From contig CM126218.1 of the NCBI GenBank assembly GCA_052327205.1, positions 79,484,001-79,548,000 on the forward strand: 64,000 nucleotides of DNA, given 5' to 3'. Made by a program: the position numbers and the translations under genes. The stretch's first letter is position 1. Each line of letters opens with the position of its first letter. The notes beneath the pieces are model-generated. The model did not search any database, had not been told where the DNA came from, and worked only from the letters and a program-made list of their open reading frames with translations. Origin of the DNA: Somniosus microcephalus. Taxonomy: Eukaryota. Of the stretch, positions 50,575 through 56,135 are shown in pieces.

Positions 50575-50828
50575 TGTAGTGTATGTATCCGTCTACCTTT
50601 AAGAAAACCATTGTATGTAACCGTTCACCTTTAAGAGAACTATTTTAGGTGTGGCACTACTTTGTTGGCTTCTGTATACTGTAATACCGACGGCGACCAC
50701 ACCGGTATATAAGTGCTGTGTCAGGATTTATTTGGCAGATTCGCCCTGACCTTCGAATAGTAAAGTCCTGTTTTAAGTTACTCTGGTAGTCTGTGTATTA
50801 ATTAACTAAACAACCCACAGACTTTACA
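50575..50828 (+). repeat. 5' LTR (254 bp)
   Basis: TGTAGT...ACTTTACA; TATATAA at 50706-50712; AGTAAA polyA-like signal; near-identical to 55882-56135. Confidence 0.96.
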
Positions 50829-50829
50829 G

Positions 50830-50839
50830 TGGCGACGAG
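50830..50839 (+). promoter_or_regulatory. Primer binding site, tRNA-Ser(GCU)-type
   Basis: TGGCGACGAG 1 nt after the 5' LTR; complementary to the recalled 3' end of vertebrate tRNA-Ser-GCT (...CTCGTCGCCA). Confidence 0.85.
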
Positions 50840-51883
50840 TCCGATCGTACCCTGCGGCAACAATACTTCCGAAGCAGTTAACGAGCGTCGAGAAGAGGCA
50901 ACCGCCCTCGTCGTTCTGCTGGGAGAAAACGCGAGGCTGCAGAACTAGAAAGGAAGAAGAAGTTAGAGACAAAGACTTCCATCAGCAACAGGCACTGACT
51001 GTCCCTTCTGCCACGGTGAGGAGTGAGCCGATCAGCACGAGAAGCAAGGCGGCCACGGTGACTGTGAGTAAGGGAAAGTAAAAAGAATAACCGGAGGATA
51101 AGGGCGGTGCACTCGACCACGGTCGAGGGGGAAAGGAGCCGGACAGAAGTCGGGTCCAGAGGCGCTGAGACTGGGGCAGCGTGGAGCAAGGAAGCCGCGG
51201 TACAGACAGGCTGGGGGACGCAACGGCGTCGTGAGACAGCTAGACCGCGACCGGCGAAAAAGGCCGGGCAGCGACCGAAGCCACGAAGCGCTGCGACCGG
51301 GAGCGTAGGTGCGGGAAGAGATAAACTCAGCCGCAGCCGGGGAGGGAAGCACCGGACTGCGAGAGGGCTGGGAGGCGCGATTGGGAGCCGAGTGAGCGGG
51401 AGAGGCAGAGCCGACCAAGGGGGAACTGAGCGAGAGCCAGTCCAGCGGCTGAAACTGTTCTCCGTCAACGGGGTGTACCCAGCGCCGGTAGAGCCGAGCG
51501 AGCGGGTGAGAGACAGAGCCCGAGCAAGGGGAACCGAGCGAGAGCCAGCCCAGCGGCTGAAATTGTTCACCGTCAACGGGGTGTACCCAGCGCCGGTTGC
51601 CCTGCCGAGAAAAGGGAAAGCCCTGAAGCCGACGCGCAGGCTGTGAACCTGAAAGCCAGCGGCCGTCGCCCGTGGGGAAAGTGTACCCCTCCCGCGAGGG
51701 AAGAAACGCGGGAAGCCGCCATTAGGCGGGGAAGAAGACAGAAGCGGGAAACCGCCATTGAAGTGGGCGGGGAGAGAAGATAAGCGCGGGAAACCGCCAT
51801 TTTCGCGGGAACCGCCATCTTGAAAAAAAAAATAAAGGAAAATTTAAAGAAATAATTCGTGGTGTTATCAGGAAGAGAGGAAG

Positions 51884-54802
51884 ATGCCTAAGCGTGGTAA
51901 CATCAACGATTTTAATTCCGAGGTAGAAGACTGGGCCACGTATGTGGAACGCATTGAGATCTATTGTGAGGCCAATAAAATAGAAGAAGATGACAAAGCT
52001 ATAACCTTGCTAAACTCGATGGGCGCGAAGACATATGGGCTCTTGAAGCATCTACTAGCACCAGCTAAACAGGCGGATCAGACTTTCGAGGATATTGTGA
52101 CTGTTCTGAAGGACCACTTGAACCCCACACCGTTGATGTTGGCAGAACGATTCAAATTCTATGCGAGAACGCAAAGGAAAGACGAAAGCAACGCAGAATA
52201 CTTGGTCGAACTGCGTAGACTAGCGAAACACTGCCAGTTTGGAGGGAATCTGACAGAGGCATTGCGAGACAAGTTCGTGTGCGGGTTGTCAAAGGAAGGA
52301 ACGCAAAAGCGACTACTCGAAGAGAACGACCTTACACTTGACAGGGCTGTCCTTATTGCAGCATCGCACGAAGCCGCAGTGAAGGGAACTGCGGAAATGC
52401 AGCTAAAGGCAGCGGCACTCAGTGTGGATCAAATTACCTCGAGTACAACAAAATGCTATCGTTGTGGGAAGACAACACACGACCAGAACCAATGCTGGTT
52501 TAAGAGCCAGGAATGTAGGAAATGTGGCAAACTGGGTCACATAGCTAAGGTATGCCGGTCAGGGAAGAAGACCAACAACCAAAGGAAGCCATCACAGGAA
52601 AAGTACAACAAGGTACACAAGGTGGCTGAGAAGAGTTCAGACGAACAGAATTCGGACTCAGACCCAAACGGCCAGGAGCTGGGCAGTCTGAGAATTCACA
52701 ATGTGAGTAAGGAAGCTGACCTACAAACTATCTGGGTCATGCTAAAAATAGCTGGAGTCCAAGTGAAAATGGAGTTGGACACTGGATCAGCTCTATCAGT
52801 CATAAATCGAAGGGATTACCACCGGCTATTCTCACATATACCCTTAAGAGATACCAAGTTCGTATTGCAGACATACACGGGGCATAAAGTATATCCCATG
52901 GGGAAGATAAAAGTCAAGGTGAGAGATGGGGGTAAAGAACACCCAAGAATGAACTTATACGTACTACCTGAGGGAGGACCACCACTTCTGGGACGGGAGT
53001 GGATCAAGAAAATAGACATGGAATGGCACTATCTAAAAGCCATAACGAGTGAGGACTCGGTGCAGACAATCAGCTCAGATTCTGAAACGGATGACGATAA
53101 GACCAACCCAAATATGAAAGACAAGGCTAAAATGGACTTGTCGACTAAGGTTGGAAGAACGAAGGCATGCATAAAGGCTTATGCTCCAGAGAAGAACAAA
53201 GTTTCAGAACAGAACTCCACCGAACAACGACAACATAGTTTGACAGAGAATTCTGAGTCTGTTCAGTTTACGGACATATCCATGACTGACGAACACCGAG
53301 CTCGGACTCAACTTTATTTCAAATTACGACAGCAAGTAGAACAAGTGAGTTACCGTCTCGAACAAGAGATGAAAACAATGAAAAAGTTCTATGACACCGA
53401 ATGGGAGAATCTGGAAAGACAACAGAAGCAGCTAGCTCAAGCAGAGAGCGACCATAGAGCCATTGTGACCAATTACCGATCACATCTCCCTTATGCTGTT
53501 CAGGAGGTAGAATATTTGCAGGAAGGAGCAAATGAAGAGGAATCTTCAGGAAGCCAGGATTTTATTCCCGTTCTTCTCTACGACTCCTTACAAGCAGAGT
53601 TTGAGAAGTTGAAGGAACAGTATGAACAGGCCCAGGCTACAATCCTGGAGGGGATTAACTCGGCAACCTCCGAAAAGCTAGTTTCAGTAGAAGCATATGA
53701 GCAACTAAAGGTTGAACATGAGCAAGAAGTCCAAAGGCTGCAGGAAATTCTTGATGAGCTCAAGGCCAAGACAGACTCATCGGTAGAAGTTCCATCCATA
53801 GATGAGAAATTAGAGGTGAAAGACATGGCAGAACATGAAAGACAAGATGTCCAAGAACTCATAAAAATATTGAAGGAAACCCAAGACAAATATGAGGCGG
53901 CAATGACCGAGGTTCAACAACTTGAAGAACAGATTCAACTGGGAATCCTTTCAGTGGAAGAAAAGGAAACTGTAAGAAACACAGAGGCTGTAAGAATGGC
54001 CCCTGAACATGAGCTAGAGAGCATCAAGGCGCAACTTCTCCGAGCGCTGGAAGCCAAAGTACAAGAGGAAAAGAAGGTGAAAGCATTGGAGGAAAAGGTG
54101 GATGAAATGGAGAAGACTCTGATCCACAGTGTTCCCGTGGAAGAGTTAACGGTCAGCCAACTCCTTCATATGCTGAGGGACAAGACTCTGCAATGGGAAC
54201 AATCTGAACACGAGCTTCAATCTTCAAAGGGAAGGAGTTCGGAGCTCTCAAAAGTTATGGAAATAGCTGAGGTTGCAACACAGATTTTACTGGGATGCCA
54301 AAAGTACGCTGAATCACGTCTATGTGAACAACAGAATGTTGAAACAGCTGCTCCAGTAGAAGGATTGAATAGCCCGATCAATCAATCCCCAATGGAAGGG
54401 GAAGTGTTGAAATCACAAATGAGGTCATTAGTGAAGGATTTGCAGGAAACCCAGGAAGAGCGGGATGAATATGAACGCATGAAAAAGTCTCTTCAGGAAA
54501 GATGTCTAGGGAGGGAACAACAGTCGGCTAACGTCCAGTTGGGTAAGGAAGAAGTAGCAGGCCCTCTCGCTAGACTAGTTCAGGACGACACCGAATATTA
54601 CCATGACCTGTTGAGTGACACGGAATATTACGAGGACTTGGCCTGCCCAGCTTGTGATGAAAACTCCCAAAGTGCAGAAATCAGGATGAAGCACTTAAAG
54701 TCTAAGGAACATAGGGAGATGGTGGCGCTACAGCTGGCAGCTGATAAGGGAGCCCCGAGAGTCTCCAAGAAGCAGAAAAGAAAAAGACAAAGCAGAAGGT
54801 GA
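51884..54802 (+). CDS. Chimeric retrotransposon polyprotein: Gag (two CCHC knuckles) + aspartic protease + captured host coiled-coil/zinc-finger mosaic
   Basis: Uninterrupted 972-aa ORF. Mag-type Gag N-terminus (EDWATYVER...AERFKFYARTQ). Knuckles CYRCGKTTHDQNQC and CRKCGKLGHIAKVC (52454-52555). Protease LDTGSA (DTG at 52778-52786) and LLGREW. Then an E/Q/K-rich region resembling STK10, ANKRD24 and DNAJC21. Confidence 0.92.
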   Translation: MPKRGNINDFNSEVEDWATYVERIEIYCEANKIEEDDKAITLLNSMGAKTYGLLKHLLAPAKQADQTFEDIVTVLKDHLNPTPLMLAERFKFYARTQRKDESNAEYLVELRRLAKHCQFGGNLTEALRDKFVCGLSKEGTQKRLLEENDLTLDRAVLIAASHEAAVKGTAEMQLKAAALSVDQITSSTTKCYRCGKTTHDQNQCWFKSQECRKCGKLGHIAKVCRSGKKTNNQRKPSQEKYNKVHKVAEKSSDEQNSDSDPNGQELGSLRIHNVSKEADLQTIWVMLKIAGVQVKMELDTGSALSVINRRDYHRLFSHIPLRDTKFVLQTYTGHKVYPMGKIKVKVRDGGKEHPRMNLYVLPEGGPPLLGREWIKKIDMEWHYLKAITSEDSVQTISSDSETDDDKTNPNMKDKAKMDLSTKVGRTKACIKAYAPEKNKVSEQNSTEQRQHSLTENSESVQFTDISMTDEHRARTQLYFKLRQQVEQVSYRLEQEMKTMKKFYDTEWENLERQQKQLAQAESDHRAIVTNYRSHLPYAVQEVEYLQEGANEEESSGSQDFIPVLLYDSLQAEFEKLKEQYEQAQATILEGINSATSEKLVSVEAYEQLKVEHEQEVQRLQEILDELKAKTDSSVEVPSIDEKLEVKDMAEHERQDVQELIKILKETQDKYEAAMTEVQQLEEQIQLGILSVEEKETVRNTEAVRMAPEHELESIKAQLLRALEAKVQEEKKVKALEEKVDEMEKTLIHSVPVEELTVSQLLHMLRDKTLQWEQSEHELQSSKGRSSELSKVMEIAEVATQILLGCQKYAESRLCEQQNVETAAPVEGLNSPINQSPMEGEVLKSQMRSLVKDLQETQEERDEYERMKKSLQERCLGREQQSANVQLGKEEVAGPLARLVQDDTEYYHDLLSDTEYYEDLACPACDENSQSAEIRMKHLKSKEHREMVALQLAADKGAPRVSKKQKRKRQSRR

Positions 54803-55832: not shown

Positions 55833-55868
55833 GTTATGTTTAATGGGGGACTAAGTATGTTGTAAGCT

Positions 55869-55880
55869 AAAAAGGGAGGA
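55869..55880 (+). promoter_or_regulatory. Polypurine tract
   Basis: AAAAAGGGAGGA 1 nt before the 3' LTR. Confidence 0.9.
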
Positions 55881-55881
55881 T

Positions 55882-56135
55882 TGTAGTGTATGTATCCGTC
55901 TACCTTTAAGAAAACCATTGTATGTAACCGTTCACCTTTAAGAGAACTATTTTAGGTGTGGCACTACTTTGTTGGCTTCTGTATACTGTAATACCGACGG
56001 TGACCACACCGGTATATAAGTGCTGTGTCAGGATTTATTTGGCAGATTCGCCCTGACCTTCGAATAGTAAAGTCCTGTTTTAAGTTACTCTGGTAGTCTG
56101 TGTATTAATTAACTAAACAACCCACAGACTTTACA
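55882..56135 (+). repeat. 3' LTR (254 bp)
   Basis: Direct repeat of the 5' LTR, preceded by the PPT and followed by TSD CAAGC. Confidence 0.96.

What the first reader, a model, noticed from the sequence alone, without database searches (positions are those of the whole stretch)
50575..56135. Recently mobile LTR element whose pol is replaced in frame by a multi-gene host mosaic
Seen: intact cis signals, LTRs differing at 1 of 254 nt, and a stop-free 972-aa ORF. In that ORF Gag-PR runs directly into about 580 aa with no RT, RNaseH or IN core. Recalled homology: this tail is stitched from at least three unrelated host genes (STK10/SLK, ANKRD24, DNAJC21). Inference: serial mRNA capture by RT template switching, like gag-onc fusions of acute retroviruses but iterated. 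The fragments look well diverged from their donors yet every junction stays in frame, and the recognised pieces are coiled coils plus a zinc finger. This suggests selection on a new Gag-PR-coiled-coil protein in a helper-dependent family, for example for particle co-assembly or localisation. I know of no description of this in sharks.
Basis: partly seen in the sequence, partly recalled or inferred. Interest (0 to 1): 0.93.

Follow-up and report, generated by a model that had tools for sequence, protein, structure and literature searches.

The report
Shark retrotransposon built from circular RNAs
A jumping gene in a shark genome replaced its own copying enzymes, step by step, with pieces of four host RNAs, two of them apparently circular RNAs, kept them in one reading frame and still spread to thousands of copies, leaving each intermediate stage in the genome.

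Summary
Confirmed and extended. This is a non-autonomous Ty3/Gypsy element: Gag-protease fused in frame to host pieces, without RT, RNase H or integrase. It has about 3,500-3,900 copies; RNA-seq reads from a related sample cover it end to end, and a gag-pol helper with 96-97% identical LTRs exists. Two pieces have exons in back-spliced order. A sister subfamily (1,108 junction hits) holds exactly one 1,245-nt turn of a five-exon STK10 circle, 99% identical to the host, entering and leaving at the same point. The window type carries an ANKRD24 back-splice junction. Intermediate subfamilies give the order of capture. Gag and protease show purifying selection; most host pieces do not differ from neutral decay, and a compensated frameshift shows that the frame, not the peptide, is kept. 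Most likely: template switching onto co-packaged RNA, with selection for translation through the RNA. Known relatives are maize Bs1, LTR retrocopies and mouse circRNA pseudogenes; this combination and scale were not found in print.

The parts
50570..50574 (.). 5' target-site duplication CAAGC
   Evidence: repeated at 56136-56140
50575..50828 (+). 5' LTR, 254 nt, TG..CA
   Evidence: 97% identical to the helper LTR
50830..50839 (+). primer-binding site; tRNA-Ser assignment is recalled, not tested
   Evidence: same site follows the LTR in other copies
50840..51883 (+). leader with internal repeats; 97% identical to the helper, closer than to older chimeric subfamilies (82%)
51884..52603 (+). Gag with two CCHC knuckles (aa 190-225), under purifying selection
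52736..53020 (+). aspartyl protease (aa 285-379)
53047..53287 (+). STK10 piece 1 (host aa 400-480), remnant of the one-turn STK10 circle
   Evidence: 83.6% to the host exon
53288..53433 (+). STK10 piece 2 (host aa 616-665, PKK coiled coil), two host exons joined without intron
53428..53503 (+). ANKRD24 C-terminal piece: 6-nt microhomology, end of one exon, then a whole 66-nt exon ending at its splice donor
53504..54146 (+). ANKRD24 large exon from its exact splice acceptor, which lies 11.5 kb upstream of that donor in the host gene: back-splice junction at 53503/53504
   Evidence: 3,510 junction hits
54140..54552 (+). optineurin (host aa 231-384), with a compensated frameshift at aa 802-815
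54553..54789 (+). DNAJC21-like piece: C2H2 jaz-type zinc finger with all four ligands, then a basic stretch in the donor's own frame; intron removed
   Evidence: gene name recalled
54790..55067 (+). 3' UTR: decayed back-spliced half of the STK10 circle plus the stub of the integrase C-terminus
55148..55832 (.). secondary 685-nt insertion with terminal inverted repeats and 3-bp duplication GTT
55869..55881 (+). polypurine tract
55882..56135 (+). 3' LTR

Best explanation
A single-ORF Ty3/Gypsy element co-packages host RNAs in its particle. During reverse transcription RT jumps at short microhomologies onto a host RNA and back (shown by junction anatomy; the jump itself is inferred). First, pol was replaced by one full turn of a five-exon STK10 circular RNA; RNase H destroying the template behind RT would explain why copying stopped after exactly one turn (inferred). 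Descendants then captured optineurin, a DNAJC21-like RNA and finally an ANKRD24 circle, each replacing part of the earlier insert (order shown by intermediate subfamilies). The element makes its own Gag and protease, borrows RT and integrase from the helper, and has swapped in the helper's LTR and leader by recombination. Variants that stay translated through most of the RNA are favoured, probably by RNA stability or cis packaging, while the tail's sequence is largely filler (inferred). Capture through RNA: about 0.97; STK10 circle 0.9; ANKRD24 circle 0.8; frame rather than peptide under selection 0.6.
For: Host exon boundaries match the reversed junctions exactly: STK10 donor and upstream acceptor, ANKRD24 donor and upstream acceptor. 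The STK10 insert of L065 is tiled completely by five host exons of 135, 675, 131, 124 and 180 nt, sum 1,245, about 12 mismatches, a multiple of three. Junction counts 1,108, 3,510 and 3,874 with 0 control hits each. Stage series L065, L072/L073, L077/L078, L022-L024/L075, window. Helper with RT, RNase H and integrase and the same LTR. Window LTR and leader 97% to the helper but protease 76%; copy L056 is 99-100% helper over the first 460 nt of gag and 99% window type further on. Shared N/S in Gag 3/14 and 32.5/60.5 against private 10/3 and 11/3, p about 0.002-0.003; protease p 0.019; STK10, optineurin and zinc-finger pieces p 0.2-0.6. Deletions of 93, 69, 27 and 18 nt between stages keep the frame; -20 and -1 nt compensate inside optineurin. 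RNA reads cover 30 of 30 bins in both RNA runs laid.
Against: No host circRNA was observed directly. The exon upstream of the ANKRD24 acceptor was not in the 3.5 kb fetched, so a microhomology jump on linear mRNA is not excluded there. ANKRD24 shows N/S 4/9 against 31/10, p 0.006, though this includes the host branch. Raw pairwise dN/dS is below 1 for several host pieces (0.21-0.66; one piece has 0 S and 9 N) and the intended neutral control was not clean (0.55-1.6). Private counts are small (41 changes in 8 copies). Later subfamilies stop about 390 nt before the LTR, so full read-through is not required. The tree of Gag is not a simple ladder, as expected with recombination, so stage order rests on nested junctions.
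Confidence: 0.72

Rival explanations
1. The tail is a selected protein: coiled coils, zinc finger and basic end help particle co-assembly with helper Gag-Pol, localisation or nuclear entry.
For: ANKRD24 N/S 4/9 against the host, p 0.006; low pairwise dN/dS in the STK10 coil (0.26) and second optineurin coil (0.22); four zinc ligands kept in all seven zinc-finger-bearing copies read; a 7-nt gain restores the donor's basic stretch in the later subfamilies; all donors give helical, charged segments (107, low confidence).
Against: Three of four donors do not differ from neutral decay; 14 codons are read out of frame; large parts are repeatedly deleted or replaced; the zinc-finger region has 17 N to 5 S shared changes.
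Confidence: 0.25
2. The reversed exon order came from linear RNA: extra template jumps, trans-splicing or a duplicated host allele, not from circles.
For: Exon ends share AG by default; the ANKRD24 upstream exon end was not seen; Dong et al. note that non-colinear junctions can arise otherwise.
Against: The STK10 insert starts and ends at the same nucleotide after 1,245 nt and crosses donor to acceptor exactly; two genes show it independently; patterns for these exon ends hit one place each in the host genes.
Confidence: 0.1
3. No selection on the frame: microhomology between coding sequences favours in-frame joins and the family spread through its LTR, leader and Gag alone.
For: Most junctions sit on repeated amino-acid motifs, which are in frame by construction; one capture end terminates the ORF early.
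Against: Six deletions or deletion pairs seen between stages upstream of the zinc finger all net a multiple of three (90, 106), while single copies carry ordinary frameshifts.
Confidence: 0.12
4. Assembly artefact or single dead chimera.
For: None found.
Against: Thousands of dispersed junction hits; 24 distinct 3' flanks among 26 readable of 30 copies; held in runs under three species labels.
Confidence: 0.01

Closest known systems
Maize Bs1 (passages in PMC5131818 and PMC13317346; the original papers were not held)
   Same: LTR element carrying pieces of three unrelated host genes in a chimeric, transcribed ORF; copies share switch points.
   Different: Bs1 has one to five copies and one piece out of frame; here four donors, thousands of copies, back-spliced pieces and surviving intermediates, in a vertebrate.
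LTR-mediated retrocopies in animals (Tan et al. 2016, PMC5131818, passages)
   Same: Intron loss, microsimilarity at switch points, multi-gene chimeras including a four-gene mouse case, further mobilisation as non-autonomous elements.
   Different: The passages read describe young or low-copy loci; 'circ' has 0 occurrences in the main text; no Gag-protease fusion family at this copy number.
circRNA-derived pseudogenes (Dong et al. 2016, PMC4897178, part 1 of 2 read)
   Same: Non-colinear exon junctions at splice sites, no poly(A), association with LTR sequence (33 circRFWD2 copies in mouse).
   Different: There the mechanism is called mysterious and the copies are pseudogenes; here the circle replaces pol in frame between intact LTRs, spans exactly one turn and seeds further captures.
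Mouse IAP 1-Delta-1 (passage in PMC6466679)
   Same: Non-autonomous element with a Gag fusion ORF that outperforms its helper; the fusion is reported to act in cis.
   Different: IAP is a retrovirus-derived element with an internal gag-pol deletion, not host RNA.
TR-GAG elements of plants (passages in PMC9784723)
   Same: Two LTRs around a Gag ORF, mobile without pol.
   Different: No captured host tail described in the passages read.
Acutely transforming retroviruses (recalled)
   Same: gag fused to host sequence, helper dependent.
   Different: No env, Ty3/Gypsy domain order, germ-line amplification, non-catalytic fragments.

Membership tests
Ty3/Gypsy LTR retrotransposon lineage | LTRs TG..CA, target duplication, primer site, polypurine tract | tested here: met
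Ty3/Gypsy LTR retrotransposon lineage | PR-RT-RNase H-integrase order | tested here: met
   met by the helper with the same LTR; the window element itself lacks RT, RNase H and integrase
Ty3/Gypsy LTR retrotransposon lineage | placement in the Mag clade by RT phylogeny | not tested
   recalled resemblance only
LTR-mediated retrocopy | donor introns removed | tested here: met
   STK10, ANKRD24, DNAJC21-like; optineurin contiguous in the element while host exons lie kilobases apart, one boundary seen directly
LTR-mediated retrocopy | microsimilarity at switch points | tested here: met
   STK10 entry, both optineurin ends, both ANKRD24 ends; DNAJC21-like ends and STK10 exit not resolved
LTR-mediated retrocopy | further mobilisation as a non-autonomous element | tested here: met
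circRNA-derived retrocopy | non-colinear exon junction exactly at donor and upstream acceptor | tested here: met
   STK10, ANKRD24
circRNA-derived retrocopy | sequence confined to circle exons, no poly(A) | tested here: met
   for STK10; for ANKRD24
circRNA-derived retrocopy | the circle is made by the host | not tested
   the single read-laying run was used on the element (47)
Bs1-type multi-gene chimera | three or more unrelated donors in one ORF with gag | tested here: met
Bs1-type multi-gene chimera | transcribed and translated | tested here: inconclusive
   transcription seen; translation not testable
IAP 1-Delta-1-like cis-acting fusion | translation of the fusion raises mobility in cis | not testable with these tools
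   only indirect: frame conservation
Acutely transforming retrovirus | retroviral lineage with env-bearing helper | tested here: not met
   the helper ORF ends at integrase about 85 nt before the LTR

The most novel reading that the evidence does not exclude
This lineage samples host circular RNAs inside its particles as a recurring source of coding sequence: stop-free circles are copied for at most one turn, enter the Gag-protease ORF in frame, and some captured coils, the zinc finger or the basic end are then selected as new parts of the retrotransposon protein, driving successive sweeps of thousands of copies.
Probability: 0.25. Interest if true: 0.95.

Novelty: new variant of a known kind. 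Interest (0 to 1): 0.86.

Why it matters
How circular RNAs are copied back into genomes was left open when circRNA pseudogenes were described. Here the junctions sit between intact LTRs, with microhomologies and an exact one-turn length, which points to template switching by an RNase H-bearing RT and makes that testable. The genome also keeps a dated series of captures, so exon shuffling by an LTR element can be followed step by step with thousands of copies for statistics on what selection keeps. It adds tens of megabases of host-like coding sequence that will confound annotation, circRNA calling and expression estimates for STK10, optineurin, ANKRD24 and the DNAJC21-like gene in these sharks.

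Tried and rejected
Naming the zinc-finger donor by protein search failed (no hit at E 10; 20, 23, 29: generic C2H2 only). The zuotin-domain locus on C17 (42) held no match to the tail and looks like DNAJC2 (65, label recalled). Patterns found nothing; the C16 hit was another element copy. Pairwise Nei-Gojobori dN/dS (55, 65) was set aside as the main test because it ignores transition bias and its 3' UTR control was not clean; shared-versus-private counts were used instead. Private changes in copies picked by protein similarity are biased and were not used. The single-sequence AlphaFold model is low confidence (mean pLDDT 41.7) and shows only a helical tail; no fold search was run. No RNA holder was listed by the index; two raw RNA runs were laid instead. 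Earlier findings of the scan: none. No tRNA gene in the window. The helper's copy number and a large unbiased set of full-length copies were not obtained, so the helper-to-chimera ratio and the share of intact copies remain open. The ANKRD24 upstream exon was not found in the 3.5 kb examined.
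Full report
OBSERVATION. The element is as described. LTRs at 50575-50828 and 55882-56135 differ at one position, with a CAAGC duplication, a primer site and a polypurine tract. The ORF at 51884-54802 gives 972 aa. Pfam finds a zinc knuckle, an aspartyl protease and a weak PKK hit (E 8.9e-5, below the cut-off), and no RT, RNase H or integrase. 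The genome is 6.45 Gb; the best protein relatives of the tail are shark genes, so the host is taken to be a shark.

DONORS. Of 65 hits to aa 390-972, all are ANKRD24/ankycorbin, optineurin or STK10 family proteins by name or domain set. Mapping gives STK10 at aa 389-469 and 469-516, ANKRD24 at 541-754, and optineurin at 753-891. The stretch at about 517-540 is the ANKRD24 C-terminus placed before its middle. The host genes were located: ANKRD24 on C13, STK10 on C8, optineurin on C17 and the zinc-finger donor on C1. For the last, protein searches gave no name; DNAJC21 is my recalled label, supported by a motif and an intron phase that I predicted from memory and then found in a host exon. The related piece in copy L077 passes the Pfam cut-off for zf-C2H2_jaz.

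COPY NUMBER. A 26-mer across the ANKRD24-optineurin junction has 3,874 hits and a 28-mer across the ANKRD24 back-splice junction 3,510 hits, each with up to two mismatches and 0 control hits. Of the 75 best-scoring tail matches, 45 lie in open frames of 982-1,004 aa; this set is biased towards intact copies. Among 30 fetched copies, 26 had a readable 3' flank and 24 of these were distinct. The tail is held by runs under three species labels at word shares of 0.35-0.79 (10 of 24 runs listed).

BACK-SPLICE JUNCTIONS. In the host, the ANKRD24 match begins exactly at a splice acceptor (polypyrimidine, CAG|GAG; 97.4% over 648 nt). The 66 nt before it in the element are a whole host exon, from acceptor to donor, lying 11.5 kb downstream. 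This junction is identical in 28 of 29 other copies; one was not read, and the window copy has one private change beside it. A search with the uncaptured middle of STK10 unexpectedly gave 98 matches, most of them intron-less. Copy L065 reads Gag, protease, about 20 residues of pol, then STK10 from mid-exon through four exons to a donor, then an upstream exon from its acceptor (135 nt, 0 mismatches), and back to the starting nucleotide, then the integrase C-terminal stub. The insert is 1,245 nt, the sum of five exons (135, 675, 131, 124, 180), tiled completely with about 12 mismatches. Entry is at a microhomology between helper pol and STK10. This junction has 1,108 hits. One exact turn is what an RT would give if its RNase H removes the circle behind it; that step is inference from established RT biochemistry.

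ORDER OF EVENTS. Stage 0: an autonomous single-ORF element with RT, RNase H and integrase; 4 of 30 LTR loci end in integrase (30), and the one copy read in full has LTRs 96-97% identical to the window's and a stop codon in pol (46, 72). Stage 1: the STK10 circle (L065-L067). Stage 2: internal STK10 deletion and optineurin 139-428 inserted at microhomologies, the ORF still running to the integrase stub (L072, L073). Stage 3: the zinc-finger piece inserted, first in frame to the end (L077, L078; 70, 76), then with a 7-nt gain that restores the donor's basic stretch and ends the ORF, leaving the rest of STK10 in the 3' UTR (L022-L024, L075; 30, 63, 106). Stage 4: ANKRD24 replaces the end of STK10 and the start of optineurin (window type). 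The window's 3' UTR still aligns to the back-spliced half of the circle at 76% (41).

HELPER CONTACT. The window's LTR and leader are 97% identical to the helper, falling to 76% in protease; copy L056 is 99-100% helper over the first 460 nt of gag and 99% window type after 690 nt (85; tree in 84). Such recombinants imply co-packaging of helper and chimera RNA.

EXPRESSION. Two raw RNA runs, added by species label, gave 15,417 reads of 16.65 million records and 12,331 of 14.40 million, covering 30 of 30 bins; in X23 first mates lie mostly on the minus strand in internal bins, which is ORF sense for usual stranded libraries; X24 is much less one-sided (47). The counts pool related subfamilies and host ANKRD24 reads. 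An ANKRD24-less form is also read (joint 53433 to 54143: 130 and 84 reads). Translation was not tested.

SELECTION. Shared changes between subfamilies were compared with private changes in copies picked by their LTR (6 copies for Gag, 8 for the tail). Gag: N/S 3/14 and 32.5/60.5 against 10/3 and 11/3 (p 0.002, 0.003). Protease 28/27 against pooled private 31/10 (p 0.019). STK10 20/11 and 11/8, optineurin 22/12, zinc-finger piece 17/5: not different (p 0.2-0.6). ANKRD24 against the host 4/9 (p 0.006), which includes changes on the host branch; older copies place three synonymous changes and one replacement on the element side. Against my reading, pairwise dN/dS is 0.21-0.66 for most host pieces. 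For it, deletions of 20 and 1 nt shift 14 optineurin codons out of frame and back, and deletions of 93, 69, 27 and 18 nt keep the frame. Numbers are small.

MECHANISM. Shown: RNA-level capture, reversed exon junctions, nested stages, helper, recombination, transcription. Inferred: circles as templates, the RNase H limit, cis benefit of translation. The review PMC6466679 reports that the gag-pol fusion of IAP 1-Delta-1 acts in cis to aid retrotransposition (passage; the cited paper was not held), which is the nearest precedent for frame selection.

LITERATURE. Seen: PMC5131818 (passages), PMC4897178 (part 1 of 2), PMC13317346 (passages), PMC6466679 (passages), PMC9784723 (passages). Bs1 originals were seen only as cited. 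Searches listed no report of this shark family or of a circRNA replacing pol in an amplified LTR element; only listings were read for most hits, subscription journals and Repbase are not covered, and the supplements of Tan et al. and Dong et al., which I did not open, may hold similar cases.

VERDICT. Gene capture by LTR elements is known, so this is a new variant of a known kind; the one-turn circular RNA capture, its repeat, the intact series and the copy number make it highly interesting. A selected function of the tail protein remains possible but is not shown.

Noticed in passing
window 55148-55832: 685-nt GC-rich insertion with inverted ends and a 3-bp duplication inside a copy whose LTRs differ at one base: a very recent non-autonomous DNA transposon (Harbinger-like by recall).
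   Followed up: partly
window 50534-56864: The whole LTR element seems to sit inside an older element with similar inverted ends.
   Followed up: no
L072, L077, L078, L022, L024: Stages 2-3 carry the optineurin DSFVEI motif (LC3-binding, recalled); it is lost separately in L075 by deletion and in the window type by replacement.
   Followed up: no
G000:C15:9575939-9586709; C1:56141581 and 56146894: Copies in tandem at about 4.5 and 5.3 kb spacing, possibly LTR-sharing arrays.
   Followed up: no
L069 (STK10 host, reverse strand, about 268): One STK10 exon of the circle ends at a GC donor.
   Followed up: no
L013 tail: A 90-nt in-frame tandem duplication within the optineurin coil.
   Followed up: no
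G000:C1:343090224 and others: Further subfamilies with longer optineurin pieces and open frames of 956-1,051 aa; only two were read.
   Followed up: partly
window 62647-63116 and 47300-47750: 206-nt inverted repeat and SINE-like repeats in both orientations.
   Followed up: no
G000:C17:58.35-58.37 Mb (L070): Zuotin-domain gene, probably DNAJC2 (recalled); not a donor.
   Followed up: partly
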